A stretch of DNA of 64,000 nucleotides from Escherichia coli. Lineage in GTDB: Bacteria > Pseudomonadota > Gammaproteobacteria > Enterobacterales > Enterobacteriaceae. The stretch lies in NCBI RefSeq assembly GCF_045037415.1, contig NZ_CP173438.1. One strand, 5' to 3'. Of the stretch, positions 16,465 to 28,236 are shown in pieces. The first letter of the stretch is position 1. Every line of letters starts with the position of its first letter. Under the pieces are notes generated by a model. That model did no database searches, had not been told where the DNA came from, and saw nothing but the letters and a program-made list of their open reading frames with translations. The position numbers were made by a program, and so were the translations under genes.

Positions 16465-17880
16465 TTATTCGTCGTCGTACTGCGGCCCCGCATAGTTGTC
16501 GAAGCGCGACCATTGACCGTTAAAGGTCAGGCGTACCGTCCCGATTGGGCCGTTACGTTGTTTACCGATAATAATTTCCGCGATGCCTTTTAAATCACTG
16601 TTTTCGTGATACACCTCATCACGATAGATAAACATGATCAAGTCCGCATCCTGCTCGATAGAGCCAGATTCACGCAGGTCGGAGTTGACCGGGCGTTTGT
16701 CGGCACGTTGTTCCAGAGAACGGTTCAACTGGGACAGCGCCACCACCGGCACGTTCAGTTCTTTCGCCAGTGCTTTCAGCGAGCGGGAGATTTCTGCAAT
16801 TTCCAGCGTACGGTTATCGGAAAGCGCCGGTACGCGCATCAGTTGCAGGTAGTCGATCATGATAAGCCCGATGCCGCCGTGTTCACGGGCAATACGGCGT
16901 GCGCGGGAACGCACTTCCGTTGGCGTCAGGCCGGAGGAATCATCGATATAGATATTGCGTTTTTCGAGCAAAATACCCATGGTGCCGGAAATGCGTGCCC
17001 AATCTTCATCATCGAGCTGCCCGGTACGGATTTTAGTCTGGTCAACACGCGACAGCGACGCCAGAGAACGCATCATAATCTGTTCTGATGGCATCTCCAG
17101 CGAGAAGATAAGTACCGGTTTATCCTGCAACATCGCCGCGTTTTCGACGAGGTTCATCGCAAATGTCGTTTTACCCATCGACGGACGCGCGGCAACGATG
17201 ATCAAATCCGACGGCTGCAAGCCAGCGGTTTTTTTGTTGAGATCGTCATAACCGGTGTTTACCCCGGTAACGCCATCGTGTGGCTGCTGAAACAACTGCT
17301 CAATACGCGCCACGGTTGCGTCGAGCACATCGGCGATGTTCTTCGGCCCTTCGTCTTTGTTTGCACGACTTTCGGCAATTTTGAAGACGCGGGATTCAGC
17401 AAGGTCCAGCAGATCTTCACTGGTACGCCCTTGTGGATCAAAACCGGCTTCGGCAATCTCATTCGCAACGGAGATCATCTCACGGACAACGGCACGTTCG
17501 CGCACGATATCCGCATAGGCACTGATGTTCGCCGCACTTGGCGTATTTTTTGACAGCTCTGCCAGATAAGCAAAACCACCGACGCTATCGAGTTGCCCCT
17601 GGCGTTCCAGCGATTCCGCAAGGGTAATCAGATCGATAGGACTACCGCTTTCCTGCAAACGCGCCATTTCAGTAAAGATATGACGGTGTGGGCGGGTGTA
17701 AAAATCGTCTGCCACCACACGCTCGGCTACATCATCCCAGCGTTCGTTATCCAGCATTAAACCGCCCAACACCGACTGCTCCGCTTCGATCGAGTGCGGA
17801 GGCACTTTCAGCCCGGCAACTTGTGGATCGCGTTCGCGGTTATCAGTCTGTTGTTTGTTGAAAGGTCTATTGCCTGCCAT
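16465..17880 (-). CDS. dnaB: replicative DNA helicase
   Basis: 471 aa from MAGNRPFNKQQ...; Walker A ARPSMGKT; ORF-finder extension trimmed. Confidence 0.93.
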   Translation of the reverse strand: MAGNRPFNKQQTDNRERDPQVAGLKVPPHSIEAEQSVLGGLMLDNERWDDVAERVVADDFYTRPHRHIFTEMARLQESGSPIDLITLAESLERQGQLDSVGGFAYLAELSKNTPSAANISAYADIVRERAVVREMISVANEIAEAGFDPQGRTSEDLLDLAESRVFKIAESRANKDEGPKNIADVLDATVARIEQLFQQPHDGVTGVNTGYDDLNKKTAGLQPSDLIIVAARPSMGKTTFAMNLVENAAMLQDKPVLIFSLEMPSEQIMMRSLASLSRVDQTKIRTGQLDDEDWARISGTMGILLEKRNIYIDDSSGLTPTEVRSRARRIAREHGGIGLIMIDYLQLMRVPALSDNRTLEIAEISRSLKALAKELNVPVVALSQLNRSLEQRADKRPVNSDLRESGSIEQDADLIMFIYRDEVYHENSDLKGIAEIIIGKQRNGPIGTVRLTFNGQWSRFDNYAGPQYDDE

Positions 17881-17952
17881 AACGAATGGTGTTACCTGCT
17901 GTTGAATGGGGGACAAGAGAGTATAGCGAGAAACAGTTTCTCGCTACAGCAT

Positions 17953-18987
17953 TTAACGCCCCCGCTTTCCGGTGGAAGCGCGAATTTGCAGGGTCGGGCG
18001 ATAGATGTAATGGCTGAGCGGTGCGTCTGGTTGCGCAATACGCCGTAAAATTTGCTGCGCCGCCTGTTTCCCCAGAGCCAATGGTTCTACCGCAATTGTG
18101 GTTAACGGCGGGTTACTGTAAGCACAAGCCGCCACGCCATCATTACCAATCAACGAAATATCTTCCCCGGCAAATAATCCTCTTTCGCCTAGTGCCGACT
18201 CCGCGCCAAAAGCCATTAAATCGTTATAACAAATCACCGCTGTGGGTGGCGAAGGCATATCCAACAGCTGTTGCATCAACTGGTAGCCGTTGGCCTGAGT
18301 CGGTTCAGCACGCAGCGAAAAAGCATCAGTACTCCACGGCTGTAAACCATGGTGATTCATCGCCTCAAGGTATCCCTGATAACGCATATGGTGCGTAAGA
18401 CCACCAATAAACACGATATCTCTGTGCCCTTGTTGAATGAGATATTCCGTCGCTTCCCGTACACCTGCGTGGCTGTCCACGCCAACGTAATCGACGGGCA
18501 ATTGTTGCCAATCCAGAGGGCGCATCGTGATTAATAAGGGTGTGGAACTGTTGGCATAACGCTGTAAATCGGCTTCTGAGGTACTGTTCACTGGACAGAG
18601 GACAATGCCCGCGACGTGGTGTTCCAGCAAGGTATCAAGCACCTGTTTTTGCCGGTCACTACGCTGGGAGGTATTGGACATCACGGTGATAAAACCGTGC
18701 TCCGCCAGCGTCATCTCAAGACCCATAGTAAATTCAGCGAAGAAAGGATTTATCAAATCGTCAATGACTACGCCGATAGTTAGCGATTTTTGCGAACGCA
18801 GATTGGCAGCAAAACGGTTATAGACATAGCCTAATTGTTCAATGGCTTGCTGGACTTTTTGTTGCGTCTCTTTTTTGATAAGTGAACTGTCGTTGAGAAC
18901 CAGCGATACAGTCGATTTCGAAACGCCAGCCGCACGCGCAACATCGGTTAATGTTACCCGCTTTCTTCCTGTATCCGACTTCGCCAT
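17953..18987 (-). CDS. LacI-family transcriptional regulator
   Basis: N-terminal HTH (VTLTDVARAAGVSKSTVSLVLN) + periplasmic-binding-protein-like domain; start ATG 18987; divergent from the 19243 operon. Confidence 0.8.
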   Translation of the reverse strand: MAKSDTGRKRVTLTDVARAAGVSKSTVSLVLNDSSLIKKETQQKVQQAIEQLGYVYNRFAANLRSQKSLTIGVVIDDLINPFFAEFTMGLEMTLAEHGFITVMSNTSQRSDRQKQVLDTLLEHHVAGIVLCPVNSTSEADLQRYANSSTPLLITMRPLDWQQLPVDYVGVDSHAGVREATEYLIQQGHRDIVFIGGLTHHMRYQGYLEAMNHHGLQPWSTDAFSLRAEPTQANGYQLMQQLLDMPSPPTAVICYNDLMAFGAESALGERGLFAGEDISLIGNDGVAACAYSNPPLTTIAVEPLALGKQAAQQILRRIAQPDAPLSHYIYRPTLQIRASTGKRGR

Positions 18988-19047
18988 GCCTGCTCCAAAC
19001 CCCCATAAGATCAAGGCAATTACTTTATCATAATCTCCTTTTACTCA

Positions 19048-19074
19048 TGCGATCCGTTAACGCAAGGGATCGCA
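19048..19074. promoter_or_regulatory. candidate operator palindrome in regulator/operon intergenic region
   Basis: TGCGATCC-N11-GGATCGCA inverted repeat in the AT-rich divergent promoter region. Confidence 0.3.
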
Positions 19075-19242
19075 GGAGATCGTCGTTTCGATCACAGATT
19101 CGCACTTCCCTTGTTGTGTTTTTTACACCCTAATCGTACAAATTACGCATAAATTAGATCGTTCCAATTAATTTATGAAAATTATCATATTGTTTTAAAT
19201 GTATATTTTTAATTATTTTTATATCGAAACAAGGAAATTATT

Positions 19243-20814
19243 ATGTGCTCTGTACGCACGATCACTGCACCGGAAGCTGCAGATTTGATTGTTGATGGCG
19301 CAGTTGTCACCGTCTCCTCCTCCAGTGGAATGGGGTGTCCGGATGCGGTGCTGGCAGCAATAGGTGAACGCTTTCAACGTGCCGGACATCCGCAAAACAT
19401 CACCTCCATCCACCCTATCGCCGCTGGTGATATGTATGGCGTAAAAGGCATCGATCATCTGGCGCAACCGGGCTTACTGGCAAAAGTGATCGCTGGCTCC
19501 TACCCCTCCGGTCCATCATCAATGACGCCTCCGTTAATCTGGCAAATGATCAATGACAACGCGATCCCCGCCTGGAATCTGCCTTCCGGGATCTTATTTG
19601 ATATGCACCGGGAAGCGGCGGCTCATCGTCCTGGCGTGCTGACACAAACAGGCATGGATACCTATGTGGATCCCCTGTTGCAGGGCGGTGCAATGAATGA
19701 AAAAGCGGCGCAACAATCTCTGGTTGAACGTGTTCGATTTGCTAACGACGACTGGCTGTTTTTCCCCAGTATCGTGCCGCAGGTGGCGATCATTCGCGCT
19801 ACCACTGCCGATGAACGCGGCAACCTGACTTATGAACATGAAGGGGCTTATCTGGGGCCACTGGAACAGGCTACTGCCGTTCGCAATAATGGTGGCATCA
19901 TAATTGCGCAAGTAAAACGACAGGTTGCCGCCGGAAGTCTGAAACCAAAAGAGGTGCGTATTCCGGGTGTACTGGTGGATTACATCGTGATTGCGCCGGA
20001 ACAAACACAAACGACACAAACGCAATATGAACCTGCCATTTCCGGCGAAATCAGTCGTCCGCTGTCAGCCTTTCGTTATATGGAACATGGCCCGGCGCGA
20101 GTTATTGCCCAGCGAGTCGCGCAAGAACTACAAAGTGGAGATGCGGTAAATATTGGCTTTGGTATTTCTGCCAACGTACCACGCATTTTACTGGAACAAG
20201 GTCGCCACGGTGACGTCACCTGGCTGCTGGAACAGGGCGCGATTGGCGGAGTTCCACTGCTGGAATTTCAGTTCGGTTGTGCCTCTAATGCAGAAGCATT
20301 TTTGCCCTCTCCCCAGCAGTTCACCTATTTCCAGGGTGGTGGTTTTGATCTCACTCTGATGTCGTTTTTACAAATCGGCGCAGATGGCTCAGTGAACGTC
20401 TCACATCTCCCCGCTCGTCCACATGTCACTGCCGGATGCGGTGGATTTATTGATATCACCTCACATGCGAAACGCATTATTTTCTCTGGCTTTTTCAATG
20501 CCGGTGCCCAACTGCAACTGGAAGAGGGTCAGCTGCGTATCATTAAAGAAGGCAAAGCCAAAAAACTGGTACAGGACGTCGCCCACGTGACGTTCTCCGG
20601 CAAACGCGCAATAAGACTCGGGCAACAAGTACAGTACATTACTGAACGCTGCGTTCTGGAATTAACCCCAGACGGGCTACTGGTCACAGAAATTGCCCCA
20701 GGTATTGATCCTGAACGCGACATTCTCGCCCAAAGCGATGCCCCACTCCGTCTGGCAGACGATCTCAAACTAATGAATCCCCTCTATTTTCAACAAGGAA
20801 GTCACCATGAATAA
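19243..20814 (+). CDS. family I CoA-transferase (acyl-CoA:acetate / propionate CoA-transferase-like, fused alpha-beta)
   Basis: 523 aa; AAGGAA RBS; resembles YdiF/Pct-type transferases. Confidence 0.65.
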   Translation: MCSVRTITAPEAADLIVDGAVVTVSSSSGMGCPDAVLAAIGERFQRAGHPQNITSIHPIAAGDMYGVKGIDHLAQPGLLAKVIAGSYPSGPSSMTPPLIWQMINDNAIPAWNLPSGILFDMHREAAAHRPGVLTQTGMDTYVDPLLQGGAMNEKAAQQSLVERVRFANDDWLFFPSIVPQVAIIRATTADERGNLTYEHEGAYLGPLEQATAVRNNGGIIIAQVKRQVAAGSLKPKEVRIPGVLVDYIVIAPEQTQTTQTQYEPAISGEISRPLSAFRYMEHGPARVIAQRVAQELQSGDAVNIGFGISANVPRILLEQGRHGDVTWLLEQGAIGGVPLLEFQFGCASNAEAFLPSPQQFTYFQGGGFDLTLMSFLQIGADGSVNVSHLPARPHVTAGCGGFIDITSHAKRIIFSGFFNAGAQLQLEEGQLRIIKEGKAKKLVQDVAHVTFSGKRAIRLGQQVQYITERCVLELTPDGLLVTEIAPGIDPERDILAQSDAPLRLADDLKLMNPLYFQQGSHHE

Positions 20815-21586
20815 CGGCACCATTGACCTCCAGCGCAACGGTTTCATTGCCACTTTGGTGATTAATCGCCCGGCGAAACTCAACGCATTAACCCCAGAGA
20901 TGCTCGAACAACTGCTGGCGCATTGCCACACGTTGGAAACTGATTCGGAGATCCGCGTAGTACTGCTGACCAGTGCCAGTGAAAAAGCGTTTTGTGTCGG
21001 CGCGGATATTCATCGCTGGACCTCTCTTTCTGCACTCGATATGTGGCGCAACTGGATCCGCCGCGGTCATCAGGCATTTGATGCTCTGGCACAACTGCCA
21101 CAGCCCGTAATCGCCCTGTTGCACGGCCTGGCTTATGGCGGTGGTCTGGAACTGGCTGCTACCGCCGATATCCGTATTTGTAGCGCCGAAGCACAAATGG
21201 CACTACCAGAAACCGGGCTGGCGACAGTGCCTGGCTGGTCAGGAACGCAGCGGCTGACGGCACTGCTTGGGCGCTCACTGGTGAAAGAACTGGTATTTAC
21301 CGGTGAACCACTGGATGCACAGCGGGCACTGTCCTGCGGGCTGGTGAATCGCGTTGTCGCCAGGGAGGCGTTACACGACGCCGGACTGCAACTGGCACAA
21401 CGTATCGCCCAGCGTGCTCCCGTTGCAGTGCAGATCGCCAAGCAGGTTATTGATGCCGGAGAAGGTATTGCTGTGGCCTCGACGCTTGAAGCACTGGCTG
21501 GCGCTTTTTCCGCCACGACTGAAGATGCTCATGAAGGCAGTCAGGCATTTACTGAGAAGCGTCAACCGCACTTTCAGGCACGCTGA
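20807..21586 (+). CDS. enoyl-CoA hydratase/isomerase (crotonase) family protein
   Basis: 259 aa; crotonase oxyanion-hole regions (FCVGADI, GGGLELA); 8-bp overlap with upstream gene. Confidence 0.8.
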   Translation: MNNGTIDLQRNGFIATLVINRPAKLNALTPEMLEQLLAHCHTLETDSEIRVVLLTSASEKAFCVGADIHRWTSLSALDMWRNWIRRGHQAFDALAQLPQPVIALLHGLAYGGGLELAATADIRICSAEAQMALPETGLATVPGWSGTQRLTALLGRSLVKELVFTGEPLDAQRALSCGLVNRVVAREALHDAGLQLAQRIAQRAPVAVQIAKQVIDAGEGIAVASTLEALAGAFSATTEDAHEGSQAFTEKRQPHFQAR

Positions 21587-21612
21587 TCGCCTCTTACAAG
21601 GAAAGAAAGATA

Positions 21613-22893
21613 ATGAATATGACAACCTCTGTTCCCCAAACGCCTTCTTTATTTCGGCGAATAATGACAAAACTCGCGGCCTTTGCACCTGGCATCTTTC
21701 TTATTGGCTACAGCATCGGAACAGGCAGCATCACCACTATGGCTAAAGCAGGTGCTAACTATGGTGTCTCGCTCATGTGGGCCGTGGCGCTTTCTTGCAT
21801 TGTTACCTGGTTTTTAATCCGTATTTATGGTCGTTATGCTTCCGTCACTGGTGAACGCGCGTTGACTGCATTTCGTCGCCATATCCATCCCGGCGTTGCG
21901 ATGTTGTTTCTGATCGGGTTAACCGTTGCCGTGAGCGGTTCCATTATGGGGGTAATGGGTATTCTGGCGGATGTAATGGCAACATGGTCCACGACCTGGT
22001 TTAGTGGCGGTATCTCAGCTCTCGCCTGGGCTATCGCGATGGTCATTATGATTAACGTGATGCTCTGGACCAACAGCAACGCCGGGTTCGACAAAATCCT
22101 CTCCGCGCTGGTTGGCATTATGGGGCTGGCGTTTGTGATTAATTTTTTCATTATGATGCCGCCGGTCGCAGATCTGCTGGCCGGATTTATTCCGTCTGTT
22201 CCCGATCCTGTCGCTGGCGATAACAGTACGCCATTTCTGATAATTTCTGGCATGGTGGGTACCACCGTAGCACCAGCAATGTTTCTTATGCGCACGACCC
22301 TGGTAAAAAGTAATGGTTGGGGTGTGGACAATTTGCCTCATCAAAATCGTGATGCCATTGTCAGTGCAGGAATGATGTTCATCATCAGTGCGGCGGTGAT
22401 GGCTGCGGCTGCGGGTACGTTGTACCAAACTGGCACAGGTTTAAATAATGCCTCGCAAATGGTCATTATTCTCGAACCTATTGCTGGCTCAGCTGCCGTG
22501 GGGCTCTTTGTTATTGGTATTGTTGCAGCCGGGCTTTCCAGCCAGTTCCCAAATTTGCTGTTAACGCCCTGGCTGCTGGCTGACTGGCGTGATACCAGCA
22601 ACGAAGTTAGCCCAGGTTACCGTATCCTGATGACGGTTATGTCTCTGCTTTGTCTGGTTGTGCCGCTGTTCCACGCACGCCCGGTATTGGTGATGATTGC
22701 CAGCCAGGCCTTTAACGCCATTATTCTGCCGCTGACTGTTTTATGTATGTTCTGGCTGGCGAACAAGCCTTCGTTAATGGGCAAATATCGTTGCTCACGC
22801 TGGGAAAACGTCATGTTTATTGCCATAAGCGTATTTACGCTAATCATGGGCTATATGGCAATGAGCGGCTTAATCGAAAGTCTGATGAAATAG
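21613..22893 (+). CDS. NRAMP-fold transporter homolog lacking canonical metal-binding motifs
   Basis: 426 aa polytopic; TM1 region aligns to NRAMP GPGxL...DPGN...QAGA but reads APGIFL...GTGS...AKAGA. Confidence 0.55.
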   Translation: MNMTTSVPQTPSLFRRIMTKLAAFAPGIFLIGYSIGTGSITTMAKAGANYGVSLMWAVALSCIVTWFLIRIYGRYASVTGERALTAFRRHIHPGVAMLFLIGLTVAVSGSIMGVMGILADVMATWSTTWFSGGISALAWAIAMVIMINVMLWTNSNAGFDKILSALVGIMGLAFVINFFIMMPPVADLLAGFIPSVPDPVAGDNSTPFLIISGMVGTTVAPAMFLMRTTLVKSNGWGVDNLPHQNRDAIVSAGMMFIISAAVMAAAAGTLYQTGTGLNNASQMVIILEPIAGSAAVGLFVIGIVAAGLSSQFPNLLLTPWLLADWRDTSNEVSPGYRILMTVMSLLCLVVPLFHARPVLVMIASQAFNAIILPLTVLCMFWLANKPSLMGKYRCSRWENVMFIAISVFTLIMGYMAMSGLIESLMK

Positions 22894-22903
22894 GTGGGAC
22901 GCA

Positions 22904-24940
22904 ATGATTGACGAAACGCTAACGGCGCTCACTGATATCAAAATGCCCCATTACGCACCGCTGGCTCAAGCCAGCGGTAGTATCGACCTTAACGGTACCA
23001 TTTTACCAGAGTACTGCTGCAACACGCTGGTTCTGGGCAGTGGCGCGGCAGGATGGCGAGCTGCCGTCGAGCTGAAACGGCAAAATGTCGATGTAATGGT
23101 CGCCTCCAGCAAAGCCTTCTGGGGCACTTCCGCCTGTTCTGGTTCCGATAAACAAACGCTTCACACCGCGAATACGCGTGCAAATGGTGACCATTTTCTG
23201 ACATTAAGTAACACCCTGGCGGCAGGTGGTGCGATGGATCATGACACCGCATATGTTGAGGCGGTCGGATCGGTGAACACCTGTGAAGTACTGAAATATC
23301 TGGGTCTGGATCTGCCTGAAGATCTCTTTGGCGCAACGTTGCGTTATCAAACCGATCACGATGAATTTGGCCGTGCCACTAGCTGCGGTCCTCGAACATC
23401 GCGCCTGATGGTGAAGGTGCTGGCCCAGGAGGCAATGCGCCTTAATATTCCTCTTTGCGATCACACAACGGCGATTCATATCCTGACCAGTGGTGAAGGG
23501 GAAAATCGACGAGTCGTGGGGGTGATCGCCATCGATAAAGCCTGTCGGGATAATCCCTGGCGAATGGTCGTGATTCGCTGCCAGCATCTGGTTTTAGCCA
23601 CGGGCGGACCAGGTGAACTTTATCGTGACAGTGTTTATCCGGTGAACTGTTTTAGTGCGTTGGGCATGGCACTGGAAGCAGGTATAACTCTGGTTAATCT
23701 TACGGAAAGTCAGTTTGGTATCGGTACACCGCGCAGCCAGTTTCCGTGGAATCTTTCCGGTACTTACATGCAGGCGATGCCGCGCATCTATTCGCAGGAC
23801 CACTCCGGGCGTCAGTATAATTTTCTGGCAGCTTATTACCCCACGACTCGTATGCTGGCCTCCGCAATATTTCGTAAAGGTTACCAGTGGCCGTTTCACG
23901 CGGAACGAATGCTGGAATATGGCTCCAGCCTGCTGGATGTCGCAGTTTATGAAGAGACTCAAAAAGGGCGCGATGTTTTTCTTGATTTTCTACGGGAACC
24001 AGAACCCGCAGCGGACGGAACGTCATTCAACCTGCAAGAACTGGATGATGATGTCATCGACTATCTGCAACAAAATCACGCCCTGTTGGCACAACCGCTG
24101 GCGAGATTAACACAGATGAATCCTCTGGCTATTCGTTTGTATCAGATGCACGGTCATGATCTCACAGCCTCACCGCTCAAGTTTACGCTAAATAATCAAC
24201 ATCTTAATGGCGGAATTGAAGTTGATATTTGGGGACGTACATCGCTAACTGGTTGTTATGCTGCCGGAGAAAATGCCGGAACACATGGTGTCACGCGCCC
24301 AGGTGGAGCAGCGCTCAATGCCGGGCAAGTTTTCGCCCGCCGCTGTGCATTACATATTGCTCATCAGAAAAGCCAGGACCGGCCTCTCGAGAGGCAACAA
24401 ATTCTCAGTACGATTAATGAGGCGCAACAGTACCTGAATCAGGGGCTGCTACGTGACGACGTGCGAGAAACGATACAAAATACCATGAGCCACCATGCCG
24501 CAATTTTGTGTCATACACAGGGGATCAACACTGCCGCGCAAACCCTGGCAACACTTTGTGAAGATATTCGCCGGGAAGGTATTCAATGCGATGAAAACAG
24601 CCTGGCACAATCTTTCCAGTGGCGGCAAAGTGCGCAACTGGCGCTGGCTGTACTGCGTTCTTTACAATGTTATGTCGAAAACGGTGGTGGGAGTCGTGGT
24701 GCCAGGGCTATCTATGATGGCGAAGCCGGTATTGCACCGCAAACACCAGGTGGGCCACTCCTGGCCTGGCGTTTTCGGCCAGAAAATCAGGATGCCAGGC
24801 AATATATGATTTGTGTTTGTCGGGAAGCTAATGATTACCAAACCTGGACTCGCCCGTGCCGTGAACGGGGCGTATTAACGCTAACCAACTTTGAGCGCCA
24901 GTGGCAAAACTGGATTGCGGCGACGCCGTTTCAATACTGA
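22904..24940 (+). CDS. FAD-dependent oxidoreductase, fumarate reductase/succinate dehydrogenase flavoprotein superfamily
   Basis: 678 aa; N-terminal GSGAAG dinucleotide-binding motif; C-terminal GRTSLTGCYAAGENAG FAD-binding signature. Confidence 0.65.
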   Translation: MIDETLTALTDIKMPHYAPLAQASGSIDLNGTILPEYCCNTLVLGSGAAGWRAAVELKRQNVDVMVASSKAFWGTSACSGSDKQTLHTANTRANGDHFLTLSNTLAAGGAMDHDTAYVEAVGSVNTCEVLKYLGLDLPEDLFGATLRYQTDHDEFGRATSCGPRTSRLMVKVLAQEAMRLNIPLCDHTTAIHILTSGEGENRRVVGVIAIDKACRDNPWRMVVIRCQHLVLATGGPGELYRDSVYPVNCFSALGMALEAGITLVNLTESQFGIGTPRSQFPWNLSGTYMQAMPRIYSQDHSGRQYNFLAAYYPTTRMLASAIFRKGYQWPFHAERMLEYGSSLLDVAVYEETQKGRDVFLDFLREPEPAADGTSFNLQELDDDVIDYLQQNHALLAQPLARLTQMNPLAIRLYQMHGHDLTASPLKFTLNNQHLNGGIEVDIWGRTSLTGCYAAGENAGTHGVTRPGGAALNAGQVFARRCALHIAHQKSQDRPLERQQILSTINEAQQYLNQGLLRDDVRETIQNTMSHHAAILCHTQGINTAAQTLATLCEDIRREGIQCDENSLAQSFQWRQSAQLALAVLRSLQCYVENGGGSRGARAIYDGEAGIAPQTPGGPLLAWRFRPENQDARQYMICVCREANDYQTWTRPCRERGVLTLTNFERQWQNWIAATPFQY

Positions 24941-25045
24941 TCAGAGATATTCCGGGTTGTGACCGCAGCCCGGAAAAAATCCCCGCGCGGCCTGGCGACT
25001 ACTGTTAGGCTTAAAACAGATATGTCGCTCAGTAAAGGAGTTTAA

Positions 25046-26029
25046 ATGGCAACGCGCATCGAATTTCACAAGCACGGTGGCCCGGAAGTACTTCAGGCCG
25101 TGGAGTTCACTCCTGCCGATCCGGCGGAGAATGAAATCCAGGTCAAAAATAAAGCCATCGGCATCAATTTTATCGACACGTATATCCGCAGCGGCCTTTA
25201 CCCGCCACCATCGCTACCCAGCGGATTAGGCACCGAAGCGGCAGGCATCGTGAGTAAAGTCGGCAGTGGTGTAAAGCATATTAAGGCAGGCGATCGCGTA
25301 GTCTATGCACAATCGGCATTAGGCGCTTACAGCTCTATGCATAACATTAATGCGGATAAAGCGGCGATTCTGCCTGCGGCAATTTCTTTTGAGCAAGCTG
25401 CGGCATCCTTCCTGAAAGGCTTAACGGTTTATTATCTGCTGCGCAAAACCTATGAAATTAAACCCGATGAACAGTTCCTGTTCCACGCAGCGGCTGGCGG
25501 CGTTGGCTTGATTGCCTGCCAGTGGGCAAAAGCCCTGGGCGCGAAACTTATCGGCACCGTGGGAACCGCGCAAAAAGCGCAGAGTGCGCTAAAAGCGGGC
25601 GCATGGCAGGTTATTAACTATCGTGAAGAGAATCTGGTCGAGCGGTTAAAAGAGATCACCGGTGGCAAGAAAGTGCGCGTGGTGTACGATTCAGTGGGCA
25701 GAGACACCTGGGAACGGTCGCTGGATTGCCTGCAACGCCGCGGCTTAATGGTGAGTTTTGGCAACTCATCAGGTGCGGTTACCGGTGTGAACTTAGGCAT
25801 TCTCAATCAGAAAGGCTCGTTGTATGTGACACGCCCTTCCCTGCAAGGCTATATCACCACGCGGGAGGAATTAACCGAGGCCAGTAATGAACTGTTCTCT
25901 TTGATTGCCAGCGGTGTGATTAAGGTCGATGTCGCCGAGCAGCAGAAATATCCGCTGAAGGATGCGCGGCGTGCGCATGAGATTCTGGAAAGCCGGGCGA
26001 CGCAGGGTTCCAGCCTGTTGATTCCATAA
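25046..26029 (+). CDS. qor: NADPH:quinone oxidoreductase
   Basis: 327 aa, MDR family, Qor-like. Confidence 0.9.
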   Translation: MATRIEFHKHGGPEVLQAVEFTPADPAENEIQVKNKAIGINFIDTYIRSGLYPPPSLPSGLGTEAAGIVSKVGSGVKHIKAGDRVVYAQSALGAYSSMHNINADKAAILPAAISFEQAAASFLKGLTVYYLLRKTYEIKPDEQFLFHAAAGGVGLIACQWAKALGAKLIGTVGTAQKAQSALKAGAWQVINYREENLVERLKEITGGKKVRVVYDSVGRDTWERSLDCLQRRGLMVSFGNSSGAVTGVNLGILNQKGSLYVTRPSLQGYITTREELTEASNELFSLIASGVIKVDVAEQQKYPLKDARRAHEILESRATQGSSLLIP

Positions 26030-26569: not shown

Positions 26570-27565
26570 TTAACGCTTATCCGCCACCAGTTTGAGCGCG
26601 TGTTCCAGCACATTAATGTCTGCACCCGCTTTATGGGCATTTTCACTTAAATAACGTCGCCACTGCCGCGCGCCAGGAATACCCTGGAACAAGCCCAGCA
26701 TATGCCGGGTAATATGGCCGAGATACGTCCCCTGGCTGAGTTCACGCTCAATGTACGGATACATGGCGCGCACTACCGCCACCGGATCGGCATCGGTATC
26801 CGAGGAACCAAAAATCTCTCGGTCTACCGCCGCCAGAATCCCCGGATTCTGATACGCCTCGCGCCCGACCATCACGCCATCCATATGTTGCAAATGCGCT
26901 TTAGCTTCTTCCAGCGACTTGATACCACCGTTAATCGACATCGTCAGATGCGGAAAGTCACGCTTCAGTTGATACACACGCGGATAATCGAGCGGCGGGA
27001 TCTCACGGTTTTCTTTCGGACTTAACCCAGAAAGCCAGGCTTTACGTGCGTGGATGATGAACATCTCACACTCACCTTTGCCGGAAACGGTGTTGATGAA
27101 ATCGCAGAGAAATTCATAGCTGTCCTGATCATCGATGCCAATACGCGTTTTCACCGTCACCGGAATCGACACCACATCGCGCATCGCTTTCACGCAGTCG
27201 GCAACCAGCTGCGCATTACCCATCAGACACGCACCAAACATGCCGTTCTGCACCCGGTCAGACGGGCAGCCGACATTCAGGTTGATCTCATCATATCCGC
27301 GCGCTTCTGCCAGCTTCGCACACTGTGCCAGCGCCGCCGGATCGCTACCCCCGAGTTGCAACGCTACCGGATGTTCTTCTTCACTGTACGCCAGGTAATC
27401 ACCTTTACCGTGAATAATCGCCCCTGTGGTCACCATTTCGGTATACAGCAACGTATTGCGGGAAAGCAGACGCAGGAAATAACGGCAATGTCTGTCCGTC
27501 CAGTCAAGCATCGGGGCAATCGAGAAACGGTAAGCGGGATAAACAGTGTGTGATTCTGCTGGCAT
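26570..27565 (-). CDS. dusA: tRNA-dihydrouridine synthase A
   Basis: DusA-like TIM-barrel flavoenzyme; true start may be a non-ATG codon slightly upstream. Confidence 0.85.
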
Positions 27566-27720
27566 GGCGACTTTTTAAGCATCTGGTAAATTGGGGGCGC
27601 TACTATAGCATAACGAATATGCGATCAGGCAATGTGACAGCCATGACACCCTGTTCTCGGCGTTTAAGTGAGAACTATGGTAAAGTAAGGACATTCTTAA
27701 CCCCACTGTCGAGGTGCCCA

Positions 27721-28236
27721 ATGGAAAAGACCACAACGCAGGAGTTATTAGCGCAGGCTGAAAAAATCTGCGCACAGCGTAATGTGCGCCTGACCCCACA
27801 GCGTCTCGAAGTGTTGCGCCTGATGAGTCTGCAGGATGGCGCTATCAGCGCTTATGATCTGCTTGATTTGCTGCGCGAAGCTGAACCGCAAGCCAAGCCG
27901 CCAACGGTTTATCGCGCGCTGGAGTTTCTGCTTGAACAAGGTTTTGTGCATAAGGTGGAATCCACCAACAGTTATGTGCTCTGTCATCTGTTCGATCAGC
28001 CCACCCATACTTCAGCCATGTTTATTTGCGATCGCTGCGGCGCGGTGAAAGAAGAATGTGCTGAAGGCGTGGAAGACATCATGCATACGCTGGCGGCAAA
28101 AATGGGTTTTGCCCTGCGGCATAATGTTATTGAAGCACATGGATTATGTTCAGCATGTGTAGAAGTAGAAGCGTGTCGTCATCCTGAACAGTGCCATCAT
28201 GACCACTCTATTCAGGTGAAAAAGAAACCTCGCTAA
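27721..28236 (+). CDS. zur: zinc uptake regulator (Fur family)
   Basis: 171 aa from MEKTTTQELL...; C-terminal Cys/His metal sites. Confidence 0.9.
   Translation: MEKTTTQELLAQAEKICAQRNVRLTPQRLEVLRLMSLQDGAISAYDLLDLLREAEPQAKPPTVYRALEFLLEQGFVHKVESTNSYVLCHLFDQPTHTSAMFICDRCGAVKEECAEGVEDIMHTLAAKMGFALRHNVIEAHGLCSACVEVEACRHPEQCHHDHSIQVKKKPR

What the first reader, a model, noticed from the sequence alone, without database searches (positions are those of the whole stretch)
21613..22893. NRAMP-fold transporter with the metal-coordinating motifs replaced
The N-terminal TM1 region aligns to the NRAMP signature (GPGxL...DPGN...QAGA) but reads APGIFL...GTGS...AKAGA, and the TM6 position that is usually A-x-x-MPHN reads APAM. 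Loss of the Asp/Asn/Met metal ligands argues against divalent-metal transport. Its position inside a CoA-dependent catabolic operon suggests it imports the organic substrate, a rare role for this fold.
Basis: seen in the sequence. Interest (0 to 1): 0.6.

Follow-up and report, generated by a model that had tools for sequence, protein, structure and literature searches.

The report
NRAMP-fold carrier without metal site
This E. coli accessory gene encodes a membrane carrier with the shape of an iron/manganese (NRAMP) transporter that has lost most of the metal-binding site and all of the proton relay; it belongs to a large, undescribed branch of the family that sits in sugar-acid and organic-acid breakdown operons, so it most likely imports an organic acid and is misannotated as a metal transporter.

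Summary
ORF 21613-22893 (+) is a full-length PF01566/NRAMP-fold protein (AF2 pLDDT 91; TM-score 0.81-0.85 to DraNramp and EleNRMT). DPGN reads G36-T-G-S39 and A-x-x-M-P-H-N reads T217-T-V-A220-P-A222-M. The TM3 Asp/Glu and both TM6b His of the proton relay are also replaced (I111, V114, A222, R227). One correction: the TM10 Gln is retained (Q365).

The protein belongs to a monophyletic clade (bootstrap 100/100) defined by G-T-G-S plus invariant R227 and D324. The clade is separate from the three published PF01566 clades (Slc11, "outgroup", NRMT).

The gene lies in an operon under a LacI-type regulator: CoA-transferase, crotonase, carrier, novel 680-aa flavoprotein. An orthologous cluster carries a ShiA/TcuC-like metabolite:H+ MFS permease in exactly this slot, and related clusters use TRAP or ABC systems. 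Marine clade members (79 loci) sit beside UxuA (39), a PMI-like isomerase (26), UxuB and alginate lyases.

Best reading: a cation-coupled importer of a hydroxylated organic acid. This rests on comparative evidence only. The closest precedent is the contested YcsG/PxpT case (5-oxoproline versus Mn2+). I rate it a new variant of a known kind.

The parts
17953..19014 (-). LacI-family transcriptional regulator, divergent from the operon (RefSeq start corresponds to window 18987)
   Evidence: NCBIfam hits to MalI/RbsR/CytR/PurR/GntR-type LacI regulators, all below equivalog cutoffs. RefSeq annotation. 80-84% identical orthologs keep the same position in L086 and L088.
19015..19242 (.). Divergent promoter/operator region between the regulator and the operon
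   Evidence: AT-rich 228-bp intergenic region. No Fur or MntR box, no Rfam riboswitch. The operator was not identified.
19243..20814 (+). Fused family-I CoA-transferase (YdiF-like), first gene of the operon
   Evidence: PDB 2ahu YdiF E 3e-100. NCBIfam FadX/ScoA/ScoB hits. Overlaps the next gene by 8 nt.
20807..21586 (+). Crotonase-family enoyl-CoA hydratase/dehydratase
   Evidence: NCBIfam short-chain enoyl-CoA hydratase, 218 bits and many crotonase models.
21613..22893 (+). NRAMP-fold (PF01566) carrier of the G-T-G-S / R227 / D324 clade: the finding
   Evidence: 26 nt after the crotonase gene and 10 nt before the flavoprotein gene.
21718..21729 (+). TM1 unwound segment G36-T37-G38-S39, replacing the D-P-G-N metal ligands
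   Evidence: G36 in 137/137 and S39 in 134/137 clade members.
21943..21972 (+). TM3 segment I111...V114...D120: the canonical proton-relay Asp/Glu are replaced by Ile/Val, and a clade-specific acidic residue appears at 120
   Evidence: D120 is D (99), E (26) or N (5) among 137 clade members.
22261..22281 (+). TM6 unwound segment T217-T-V-A220-P-A222-M223, replacing A-x-x-M-P-H-N. The G-T-T part is invariant and the next four residues vary between sub-branches (APAM, FSGL, SSMV and others).
22291..22293 (+). R227 on TM6b, invariant in the clade, at the position of the second conserved His of NRAMPs
   Evidence: 137/137; H, Q or Y in the GPGT outgroup; N in NRMT.
22537..22554 (+). TM8 motif S309-S-Q-F-P-N314, characteristic of the clade
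   Evidence: Helix assignment from the AF2 model.
22582..22584 (+). D324 at the cytoplasmic end of TM8, invariant in the clade; always co-occurs with R227
   Evidence: 137/137; mostly Gly elsewhere.
22705..22707 (+). Q365 on TM10: the one canonical metal-site side chain that is retained
   Evidence: 133/137 in the clade; aligned with the Gln of 10ky, ScaDMT and EleNRMT Q379.
22904..24940 (+). 678-aa FAD-binding flavoprotein of an uncharacterised family (distant from NadB/Sdh/Frd flavoproteins), last gene of the operon
   Evidence: NCBIfam hits only far below cutoffs. Best PDB hit NadB at E 3e-11. Thousands of 50-60% identical homologs. Long invariant peptides. Recurrently linked to the CoA-transferase and crotonase.

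Best explanation
The gene encodes a secondary (cation-coupled) carrier that imports the organic-acid substrate of the operon it sits in. It keeps the 11-helix NRAMP/LeuT architecture and its alternating-access machinery. The central site formed by the unwound parts of TM1 and TM6 has been rebuilt from small and hydroxyl residues (G-T-G-S; G-T-T-V-A-P-A) in place of the Asp/Asn/Met metal ligands. This should give a wider, uncharged, hydrogen-bonding pocket suited to a polar organic anion rather than a bare cation (inferred). The substrate would then be activated by the YdiF-like CoA-transferase, which needs a free carboxylate, and processed by the crotonase and the novel flavoprotein, with the LacI-type regulator sensing the compound or a derivative (inferred). 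The canonical proton relay is gone, so coupling must use other residues. Candidates are the clade-specific D120 (TM3) and the invariant R227 (TM6b) / D324 (TM8 end) pair. That pair could instead be a cytoplasmic-gate salt bridge, or R227 could bind the carboxylate (speculative). The substrate class is most likely a hydroxylated carboxylic acid (sugar-acid-like or cyclitol-carboxylate-like); its identity is unknown. Shown here: fold, residue replacements, clade membership, operon structure, transporter-slot displacement, context statistics. Inferred: substrate class, direction, coupling.
For: Fold and family: PF01566 full length; AF2 pLDDT 91.2, pTM 0.89; Foldseek TM 0.81-0.85 to DraNramp, EleNRMT and BfraNramp. 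Site loss: D->G36, N->S39, M->A220, His->A222, His->R227, TM3 D/E->I111/V114, conserved across 137 homologs; the clade is monophyletic at 100/100 bootstrap with signature columns excluded. Function maintained: dN/dS about 0.03, the best-conserved protein of the cluster (91.5% aa at 78% nt identity). Operon: gaps of -8, 26 and 10 nt between CoA-transferase, crotonase, carrier and flavoprotein. In-situ non-orthologous displacement: orthologous cluster L086 has an MHS-family MFS (TIGR00883 350 bits; ShiA 268; TcuC 181) in the same slot, and DNA homology to E. coli stops at the end of the crotonase gene. L088 keeps the Nramp-like gene in a different chromosomal location. Clusters sharing the CoA-transferase (62-71% id), crotonase and flavoprotein core carry TRAP (L091, L183, L111, L194) or ABC transporters. 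Clade context: of 79 marine loci, UxuA occurs in 39 (median gap 27 bp, same strand), a PMI-like isomerase in 26, UxuB-family in 12, oligoalginate lyase in 19, KdgK in 8 and ExuR/UxuR-like GntR in 15, with recurring UxuB-UxuA-carrier-PMI modules. The 64%-identical P0004, which has the same APAM site, lies next to GntR/UxaC/UxuB/UxuA. The 42%-identical P0124 lies with a fucosidase, GFO and SDR. No metal regulation signals. Precedent for an organic substrate in PF01566: pxpT is required for growth on 5-oxoproline.
Against: There is no experimental evidence for this protein or any member of its clade; no paper was found. Part of the site is retained: Q365 (TM10) and the NRMT-like T217-x-x-A220, and there are conserved acidic residues (D120, E288, D324) that could bind a cation. 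B. subtilis YcsG, a PF01566 protein embedded in a catabolic operon, was reported to import Mn2+, so operon context alone can mislead. UxuA and PMI-type isomerases are metalloenzymes (my knowledge), so the marine contexts fit a 'metal supply' role in principle. Eleven of the marine loci also contain an MFS of the galactonate/hexuronate type, so the Nramp-like protein is not the only candidate carrier there. I could not inspect the pocket because model coordinates are not exposed. The substrate of the E. coli pathway is unidentified.
Confidence: 0.7

Rival explanations
1. It is what it is annotated as: a divalent transition-metal (Mn2+/Fe2+) importer, placed in the operon to supply a cofactor to the pathway enzymes, as proposed for B. 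subtilis YcsG/MntG.
For: NCBIfam NF037982 'Nramp family divalent metal transporter' scores 60.8 bits against a cutoff of 50, which gives the RefSeq name. The YcsG overexpression and ICP data show Mn2+ import. The TM10 Gln is retained. Marine relatives sit next to the metalloenzymes UxuA and PMI.
Against: The Asp that is essential and universal in Slc11, NRAT and NRMT is Gly; Asn, Met and both His are replaced, and the proton relay is absent. The MntH subfamily model scores 84 bits against a cutoff of 430. The E. coli operon encodes no obvious metalloenzyme (CoA-transferase, crotonase, flavoprotein). The slot is filled by an organic-acid MFS in the ortholog cluster and by TRAP or ABC systems elsewhere. 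No Fur/MntR box or Mn riboswitch.
Confidence: 0.07
2. It transports Mg2+ or another hydrated cation, or a metal-organic acid chelate (for example a metal-uronate or metal-carboxylate complex), through an enlarged NRMT-like site.
For: The TM6 half-site T-x-x-A and 'GTT(V/I)AP' are nearly identical to EleNRMT 'GTTIAPW'. NRMT binds a largely hydrated ion in a widened cavity. Q365 is retained, and D120, E288 and D324 are conserved acidic residues. A chelate would reconcile the organic-acid context with NRAMP ancestry.
Against: NRMT needs the TM1 Asp (D55A strongly compromises transport), and here it is Gly. No M-box riboswitch or MgtE-like small ORF is present. The clade is separated from NRMT with 100/100 support and about 20% identity. 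The displacing transporters (MHS, TRAP) are not known as metal-chelate carriers.
Confidence: 0.1
3. It is a precursor/product exchanger or an exporter rather than a symport importer. If the CoA-transferase/crotonase/flavoprotein set runs reductively, like the carnitine (cai) pathway with its CaiT antiporter, the carrier would swap substrate for the reduced product.
For: Gene content parallels caiTABCDE (carrier, CoA-transferase, crotonase, flavoprotein reductase; my knowledge). Loss of the whole proton relay fits an uncoupled exchanger. NRMT is itself uncoupled.
Against: The displacing MHS and TRAP systems are uptake systems. The marine modules look like straightforward uptake-to-KDG catabolism. 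There is no direct evidence either way.
Confidence: 0.12
4. It is a non-functional relic of an NRAMP gene carried along in an accessory island.
For: Loss of the catalytic motifs, taken alone, might suggest this.
Against: Intact ORF; dN/dS about 0.03; 91.5% aa identity to the L088 ortholog while synonymous sites are saturated. Clade-specific invariant residues across at least 137 sequences. Confident AF2 model. 100% identical copies in many E. coli genomes.
Confidence: 0.01

Closest known systems
Canonical NRAMP/Slc11 transporters (MntH, DraNramp, ScaDMT, EcoDMT, BfraNramp, DMT1)
   Same: Same Pfam family (PF01566) and same 11-TM LeuT-type fold (TM-score 0.8-0.85). Shared structural residues (W56, D247, E288, R337) and the TM10 Gln (Q365).
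   Different: About 20% identity. D-P-G-N becomes G-T-G-S; A-x-x-M-P-H-N becomes T-x-x-A-P-A-M. The TM3 Asp/Glu and TM6b His/His proton relay is replaced. MntH subfamily HMM scores 84 against a cutoff of 430. Catabolic-operon context instead of Fur/MntR-regulated stand-alone genes.
NRMT, NRAMP-related Mg2+ transporters (CabNRMT, EleNRMT; PDB 7qia)
   Same: Same fold. The TM6 signature T-x-x-A and 'GTT(I/V)AP' are shared, the TM6b histidines are lost, and no proton relay is expected.
   Different: NRMT keeps the essential TM1 Asp (D-x-x-G) and the TM3 Glu; this protein has G-x-x-S and Val. No M-box riboswitch or MgtE-like ORF. Separate clade.
The Slc11 'phylogenetic outgroup' of Cellier and colleagues, and YcsG/MntG/PxpT/PxpG proteins of 5-oxoprolinase operons
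   Same: PF01566 members that lack the Slc11 metal and proton residues and are embedded in catabolic operons. PxpT is the one family member with genetic evidence for an organic-acid substrate (5-oxoproline). The nearest sequences outside my clade (22-30% id; 'IGPGT...GTTVVPYN', TM3 Glu/Gln kept) fit the published description of that outgroup, and one of them sits beside an OPLAH-type 5-oxoprolinase-like gene.
   Different: Signature G-T-G-S / R227 / D324 / TM8 SSQFPN instead of G-P-G-T / His / Gly. Even the 'ancestral' TM3 Glu is absent. Contexts are hexuronate/alginate or CoA-dependent, not 5-oxoprolinase. I could not obtain the YcsG or PxpT sequences, so their placement in the GPGT clade is inferred, not tested. 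YcsG's substrate is itself disputed (Mn2+).
Organic-acid uptake systems that occupy the same operon slot: MHS-family MFS (ShiA, TcuC, KgtP type) and TRAP (DctPQM type)
   Same: Same predicted job: bringing the carboxylate substrate to a CoA-transferase/crotonase/flavoprotein pathway.
   Different: Unrelated folds and families. This is functional analogy only.
APC-superfamily amino-acid/organocation carriers (AdiC, ApcT, LAT1, GkApcT)
   Same: Same superfamily fold (Foldseek TM about 0.6). From my own knowledge, these use a glycine-rich G-(S/T)-G unwound TM1 segment whose backbone binds the substrate carboxylate. The G-T-G-S segment here is reminiscent of that.
   Different: Different family and no detectable sequence similarity. 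The resemblance of the motif is a lead, not a tested homology.

Membership tests
PF01566 / NRAMP superfamily (broad sense) | Significant full-length match to the Pfam Nramp HMM | tested here: met
   PF01566 E 2.3e-56, residues 40-395 against model 1-356/357.
PF01566 / NRAMP superfamily (broad sense) | 11-12 TM LeuT-type fold superposable on solved NRAMPs | tested here: met
   AF2 pLDDT 91.2, pTM 0.89. Foldseek TM 0.81-0.85 to 6c3i, 8e6h, 7qia and 10ky.
Slc11 / canonical NRAMP (MntH) divalent-metal:H+ symporters | TM1 D-P-G-N with metal-binding Asp and Asn | tested here: not met
   G36-T-G-S39. Gly in 137/137 clade members.
Slc11 / canonical NRAMP (MntH) divalent-metal:H+ symporters | TM6 A-x-x-M-P-H with the soft Met ligand and the first His | tested here: not met
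   T217-T-V-A220-P-A222.
Slc11 / canonical NRAMP (MntH) divalent-metal:H+ symporters | TM10 Gln that completes the site in the occluded state | tested here: met
   Q365 aligns with the Gln of 10ky, ScaDMT and EleNRMT (Q379).
Slc11 / canonical NRAMP (MntH) divalent-metal:H+ symporters | Proton relay: TM3 Asp/Glu and second TM6b His | tested here: not met
   I111, V114, R227.
Slc11 / canonical NRAMP (MntH) divalent-metal:H+ symporters | Curated subfamily HMM score (NCBIfam PRK00701 MntH, TIGR01197) | tested here: not met
   83.7 bits against cutoff 430; 33.6 bits against cutoff 272.5.
Slc11 / canonical NRAMP (MntH) divalent-metal:H+ symporters | Transport of Mn2+/Fe2+ | not testable with these tools
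   Needs uptake or complementation assays.
NCBIfam NF037982 'Nramp family divalent metal transporter' (source of the RefSeq name) | Score above the curated cutoff | tested here: met
   60.8 bits against cutoff 50. The model also accepts sequences of the GPGT and GTGS clades that lack the ligands, so passing it says nothing about metal specificity.
NRMT (NRAMP-related Mg2+ transporters) | Site signature D-x-x-G (TM1) and T-x-x-A/T (TM6) | tested here: not met
   TM6 T-x-x-A is present, but TM1 is G-x-x-S and the essential Asp is absent.
NRMT (NRAMP-related Mg2+ transporters) | M-box riboswitch and/or MgtE-like small ORF upstream (frequent, not universal) | tested here: not met
   No Rfam hit at E<=1 in 17500-25500. 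The neighbours are CoA-pathway enzymes.
NRMT (NRAMP-related Mg2+ transporters) | Clusters with NRMT in a tree | tested here: not met
   EleNRMT falls on the other side of a 100/100 bipartition; about 20% identity. Only one NRMT sequence was included.
Slc11 'outgroup' / YcsG-PxpT-like carriers | Lacks Slc11 ligands but keeps the ancestral TM3 Glu (Cellier 2022) | tested here: not met
   The TM3 position is Val/Ile/Leu in the clade; the GPGT sequences have Glu/Gln nearby.
Slc11 'outgroup' / YcsG-PxpT-like carriers | Linked to 5-oxoprolinase (pxpABC) genes | tested here: not met
   No pxp genes in the window cluster or in the 79 clade loci examined.
Slc11 'outgroup' / YcsG-PxpT-like carriers | Sequence relationship to YcsG/PxpT themselves | not tested
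The B. subtilis YcsG integrative model 9a52 is a structural hit at TM 0.81.
New clade proposed here (G-T-G-S / R227 / D324) | G at the Asp position, S/A/G at the Asn position, invariant Arg on TM6b and Asp at the TM8 end; monophyly | tested here: met
   Bootstrap 100/100 with the signature columns excluded.

The most novel reading that the evidence does not exclude
PF01566 contains a fourth, undescribed major clade (G-T-G-S / R227 / D324, found in at least 590 species-level genomes and in about 15% of E. coli) whose members are sugar-acid/organic-acid:cation symporters rather than metal transporters. The marine branch would be the missing uptake step of a mannuronate or hexuronate route (carrier, PMI-like isomerase, UxuB, UxuA, KDG) in alginate degraders. 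The E. coli branch would feed an uncharacterised CoA-dependent pathway built around a new flavoprotein family, acting on a gut- or plant-derived hydroxy-acid. The clade would show how a metal site is converted into an organic-anion site within one fold.
Probability: 0.55. Interest if true: 0.75.

Novelty: new variant of a known kind. Interest (0 to 1): 0.62.

Why it matters
First, it would extend the substrate range of the NRAMP family from cations (Mn2+/Fe2+, Mg2+, Al3+) to organic acids. It would also provide a natural series (Slc11, NRMT, GPGT outgroup, GTGS clade) for studying how a LeuT-fold ion site is remodelled. The only precedent, YcsG/PxpT, is still disputed, and an independent clade with cleaner genomic evidence would help settle whether PF01566 proteins carry organic substrates.

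Second, thousands of database entries, including the RefSeq entry for this E. coli gene, are named 'Nramp family divalent metal transporter' on the strength of a 50-bit cutoff. That name feeds wrong metal-homeostasis inferences in genome-scale models and metagenome surveys.

Third, it flags two untested metabolic modules: a strain-variable E. coli island (825 of 5,426 complete genomes) encoding a CoA-transferase/crotonase/novel-flavoprotein pathway, and a widespread marine uronate module next to alginate lyases. Both are directly testable by knock-outs and uptake assays.

Tried and rejected
1. Literature searches for this cluster or clade found nothing relevant: Nramp with CoA-transferase/crotonase/LacI; Nramp with PUL/mannose; Nramp with alginate/mannonate dehydratase; CFT073 gene names; the five WP_ accessions.
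2. Pocket inspection of the AF2 model was not possible because coordinates are not exposed to the scripting environment. All site analysis is therefore alignment-based.
3. My first helix assignment put the 'AAGLSSQFPN' motif in TM10 and led me to think the metal-site Gln was lost. The AF2 helix map and a column check show the motif is in TM8 and the TM10 Gln is retained. Corrected.
4. A regex-based definition of the clade gave a non-monophyletic set because it caught the upstream GPG motif. Redefining the clade by alignment columns fixed this. A Biopython BLOSUM distance bootstrap timed out.
5. I looked for a LacI-type palindromic operator in 19000-19260 and found only a weak AT-rich palindrome, so no operator is claimed. 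The promoter and terminator scans were at background level.
6. I tested whether the variable TM6 quartet tracks genomic context. The genome sample is dominated by one type (FSGL, 67/79), so the test has no power beyond showing FSGL goes with UxuA/PMI/UxuB.
7. I tried to place YcsG via the PDB sequence search. The integrative model 9a52 is not in the sequence set, and NCBIfam has no specific model for these clades.
8. The metagenome pattern scan returned 120 loci, of which only 53 carry a true flavoprotein homolog; the rest are chance matches and were discarded.
9. I considered quinate/shikimate-type or hexuronate-type substrates for the E. coli pathway (ShiA-like MFS displacement; P0004 context). 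The evidence does not discriminate, so I name no substrate.
Full report
OBSERVATION. The window is Escherichia coli chromosome. The stretch 17900-25100 is 100% identical to strain SK1144 and others, and is present at 80% coverage or more in 825 of 5,426 complete E. coli genomes, inserted between dnaB/alr and qorA/pspG/dusA/zur. ORF 21613-22893 (+) encodes 426 aa. It matches Pfam Nramp PF01566 over the whole model (E 2e-56). It scores far below the curated MntH subfamily cutoffs (83.7 against 430 bits; 33.6 against 272.5), and passes only the permissive NF037982 model (60.8 against 50 bits), which is where the RefSeq name 'Nramp family divalent metal transporter' comes from.

DPGN is G36-T-G-S39, and A-x-x-M-P-H-N is T217-T-V-A220-P-A222-M223 (coordinates checked). 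The TM3 Asp and Glu of the proton relay are I111 and V114, and the second TM6b His is R227. One canonical site residue survives: the TM10 Gln (Q365). I first mis-assigned this and corrected it using the AF2 helix map. The TM6 half-site (T-x-x-A, 'GTTVAP') is the one seen in the Mg2+ transporter NRMT ('GTTIAP').

FOLD. An AlphaFold2 model built on 34 clade sequences is confident (pLDDT 91.2, pTM 0.89) and shows 11 TM helices with breaks in TM1 and TM6. Foldseek against the PDB returns DraNramp, EleNRMT and BfraNramp at TM-scores 0.81-0.85, the B. subtilis YcsG integrative model at 0.81, and APC-superfamily amino-acid carriers at about 0.6. So it is an NRAMP-fold protein.

A DISTINCT CLADE. Homology searches find more than 3,000 relatives and 605 cluster representatives at E<=1e-10. 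All sequences from 100% down to about 26% identity that carry Arg at position 227 also carry Asp at 324 and G-(T/P/V)-G-(S/A/G) at the DPGN position (137 sequences). The next group (22-30% identity) reads I-G-P-G-T ... G-T-T-V-V-P-Y-N with His/Gln/Tyr at 227 and mostly Gly at 324. With the six signature columns removed, the R227/D324 group is a bipartition of a neighbour-joining tree in 100 of 100 bootstraps, with the GPGT group, two canonical NRAMPs and EleNRMT on the other side. Mean identity of the clade to Slc11 and to NRMT is about 20%, and to the GPGT group about 25%.

Cellier (2022) describes PF01566 as three clades: Slc11, an 'outgroup' that retains only the ancestral TM3 Glu of the proton network, and NRMT. 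The GPGT sequences, which have Glu/Gln at that TM3 region, fit the outgroup. The GTGS clade lacks even that residue and is not described in the papers I could read. The NRMT structure paper calls the TM1 Asp 'universally conserved in all SLC11 proteins' and shows that D55A strongly compromises transport. It is Gly in every member of this clade. The gene is not decaying. Against the ortholog in locus L088 the protein is 91.5% identical at 78% nucleotide identity, dN/dS about 0.03, and it is better conserved than its enzyme neighbours.

THE E. COLI OPERON AND THE TRANSPORTER SLOT. The carrier is the third of four tightly spaced genes: a fused YdiF-like family-I CoA-transferase (PDB 2ahu, E 3e-100), a crotonase, the carrier, and a 678-aa FAD_binding_2 flavoprotein whose nearest solved relative is NadB at only E 3e-11. 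The gaps are -8, 26 and 10 nt, and a LacI-family regulator is transcribed divergently. There is no Fur or MntR box in the promoter region and no riboswitch.

The key result comes from the flavoprotein's closest relatives. In L088 (flavoprotein 68% identical) the cluster is the same, Nramp-like gene included, but in a different chromosomal neighbourhood. In L086 (LacI 84%, CoA-transferase 87%, crotonase 83%, flavoprotein 78% identical) the slot between crotonase and flavoprotein holds a 474-aa MFS of the metabolite:H+ symporter family (TIGR00883 350 bits; nearest named relatives ShiA 268, ProP 213 and TcuC 181 bits). DNA similarity between L086 and the E. coli island runs through LacI, CoA-transferase and crotonase and stops at the end of the crotonase gene. 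This is a non-orthologous displacement at a fixed operon position, the strongest comparative evidence available that the two proteins do the same job.

More distant clusters that share the core point the same way. In Uliginosibacterium (L091) crotonase, CoA-transferase and flavoprotein are followed by DctQ/DctM/DctP. In a metagenome sample anchored on an invariant flavoprotein peptide, 53 confirmed loci include at least 24 with a 62-71% identical CoA-transferase and a crotonase, accompanied by TRAP (L183, L111, L194) or ABC systems, and none with an Nramp-like gene. A CoA-transferase requires a free carboxylate, and MHS and TRAP systems carry carboxylates (established knowledge). Hence the cargo is almost certainly an organic acid.

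CONTEXT OF THE REST OF THE CLADE. The 80 best are marine polysaccharide degraders such as Zobellia, Paraglaciecola, Colwellia, Neolewinella, Polaribacter, Pontiella, Saprospiraceae and Erythrobacter. I called ORFs in these loci, clustered the neighbours and annotated the largest clusters. Mannonate dehydratase UxuA occurs in 39 of 79 loci (median gap 27 bp, same strand in 34). A PMI-class-I-like cupin isomerase occurs in 26 (adjacent in 18). TonB-dependent receptors occur in 25, KduD-like SDRs in 23, oligoalginate-lyase-like proteins in 19, ExuR/UxuR-like GntR regulators in 15, UxuB-family reductases in 12 and KDG kinase in 8. Two gene orders recur across genera: UxuB-UxuA-carrier-PMI and UxuA-PMI-UxuB-carrier. 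Read as a pathway, this is uptake, aldose-ketose isomerisation, reduction to mannonate and dehydration to KDG, a plausible mannuronate or hexuronate route beside alginate lyases (inference).

Individual look-ups agree. The closest non-enterobacterial homolog (P0004, 64% identical, same APAM site) sits beside a GntR regulator and UxaC/UxuB/UxuA. A Formosa copy follows SusC/SusD. A Litorimonas copy lies between UxuA and a 2-epimerase/UxuB. A 42%-identical copy lies with a fucosidase, GFO_IDH_MocA and an SDR. Within the clade the G-T-T of TM6 is invariant while the following four residues differ between sub-branches (APAM, FSGL, SSMV/I and others). That is what one expects of specificity-determining positions, but the sample is too skewed to test this.

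MECHANISM. Shown: NRAMP fold; loss of four of the five metal-site side chains and of the proton relay; clade-specific invariant R227 (TM6b) and D324 (cytoplasmic end of TM8), a conserved acidic D120 (TM3) and a TM8 S-S-Q-F-P-N motif. Inferred: the unwound TM1/TM6 segments, now made of Gly, Thr, Ser and Ala, form a wider, uncharged, hydrogen-bonding site for a polar organic anion. From my own knowledge, APC-superfamily amino-acid carriers bind the substrate carboxylate with the backbone of a G-(S/T)-G TM1 segment, which the G-T-G-S segment resembles; this is a lead, not a test. R227 could bind the carboxylate. Alternatively R227 and D324, which lie on the bundle and scaffold sides of the cytoplasmic half, could form an inner-gate salt bridge like R5-D369 of LeuT (my knowledge). 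D120 is a candidate H+ or Na+ coupling residue. I cannot discriminate between these without coordinates.

RIVALS. The annotated function (Mn2+/Fe2+ import) is disfavoured by the residue losses, the HMM scores, the absence of metal regulation and the slot displacement. It cannot be dismissed outright, because B. subtilis YcsG, a PF01566 protein in the 5-oxoprolinase operon, was reported to raise cellular Mn2+ and was renamed MntG, and because UxuA and PMI-type enzymes need metals. The opposite precedent is C. glutamicum PxpT (50% identical to YcsG), which is required, and complementable, for growth on 5-oxoproline; those authors 'cannot exclude' metal transport. In passing, a GPGT-clade member in Paraglaciecola sits divergently beside a 1,251-aa HyuA/HyuB-fusion protein, the architecture of the other (OPLAH) type of 5-oxoprolinase, which favours the organic-substrate reading for that clade as well. 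A hydrated-cation or metal-chelate substrate (NRMT-like half-site, Q365, conserved acidic residues) and a substrate/product exchanger mode (by analogy with CaiT in the carnitine CoA pathway) remain open. A dead relic is excluded.

COMPARISON AND NOVELTY. The protein is a member of PF01566 in the broad sense. It fails the defining site and relay features of Slc11, fails the Asp requirement of NRMT, and differs in signature and context from the outgroup/YcsG-type sequences. It works like the MHS or TRAP organic-acid permeases that replace it. I found no publication on this clade, this E. coli island or its flavoprotein family. Non-metal substrates in PF01566 have a contested precedent, and substrate switching is common in LeuT-fold families, so I rate it a new variant of a known kind rather than categorically new. 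Interest is 0.62. The result would surprise NRAMP specialists, who treat the TM1 Asp as universal. It exposes a large systematic misannotation and is directly testable, but it rests entirely on comparative inference and the substrate is unknown.

Noticed in passing
window 21613-21664: RefSeq (WP_023141302.1) starts the carrier gene at window 21664 (409 aa). The upstream ATG at 21613 has an AAGGAAAG Shine-Dalgarno-like sequence, and the 17-residue extension (MNMTTSVPQT...) is conserved in the L088 ortholog (MNTTTSVPQT...). The annotated start is probably too short.
   Followed up: partly
window 22904-24940; loci L086-L091, L095-L214: The 678-aa FAD_binding_2 flavoprotein belongs to a very large uncharacterised family (about 8,000 hits at E<=1e-20; 50-60% identity across Proteobacteria). 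It has 16-residue invariant peptides (GTSACSGSDKQTLHTA, GRATSCGPRTSRLMVKVL) and no close solved structure (NadB at E 3e-11). It recurs with a YdiF-like CoA-transferase and a crotonase, or with SDR/GFO_IDH_MocA/AP_endonuc_2 sugar-type enzymes, usually next to a transporter. The pathway is unknown.
   Followed up: partly
L023, L029, L067 (UxuB-UxuA-carrier-PMI); L035, L044, L054, L056 (UxuA-PMI-UxuB-carrier): Marine alginate degraders carry a conserved four-gene module: UxuA, a UxuB-family reductase, a PMI-class-I-like cupin (just under the TIGR00218 cutoff) and the Nramp-like carrier. It reads like an undescribed mannuronate (or other aldohexuronate) to KDG route in which the PMI-like protein would be the uronate isomerase.
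   Followed up: partly
L092 2030-7227: A member of the sister 'GPGT/VPYN' PF01566 clade (P0390, Paraglaciecola) is divergently adjacent to a 1,251-aa Hydantoinase_A/Hydantoinase_B fusion, the architecture of OPLAH-type ATP-dependent 5-oxoprolinase. If general, this would link that clade to 5-oxoproline through a second, non-homologous enzyme type and bear on the YcsG Mn2+ versus 5-oxoproline dispute.
   Followed up: no
NCBIfam NF037982 applied to window 21613-22890, P0124, P0131, P0185, P0198, P0208: The 'equivalog' model NF037982 (cutoff 50 bits) names proteins of both the GTGS and GPGT clades 'Nramp family divalent metal transporter' although they lack the metal-binding Asp. This is a systematic source of over-annotation in RefSeq and MAG annotations.
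   Followed up: partly
window 17953-24940 versus E. coli genomes: The five-gene island is strain-variable (825 of 5,426 complete genomes; at least 99% identical in 620). It is inserted cleanly between dnaB and qorA, with no mobility genes in the interval. The L088 ortholog cluster lies in a different neighbourhood (2-hydroxyacid dehydrogenase/aminotransferase on one side, two HSP20 genes on the other).
   Followed up: partly
PLSDB record CP054241.1 (807154-808430): One E. coli 'plasmid' record of 834 kb carries an identical copy of the carrier gene with no annotation under the match. The size suggests a mis-assigned chromosomal fragment rather than a plasmid.
   Followed up: no
plasmid collection hits H20-H33: Haloarchaeal megaplasmids (Haloferax, Haladaptatus, Natronococcus, Halorussus and others) encode 27-29% identical PF01566 proteins annotated as Nramp metal transporters. 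I did not check which clade or site signature they have.
   Followed up: no
window 27550-28236: The mechanical ORF for zur is 228 aa from a GTG, but the Zur model matches residues 58-228 only. The real start is downstream, which is an ORF-listing artefact rather than a feature.
   Followed up: no
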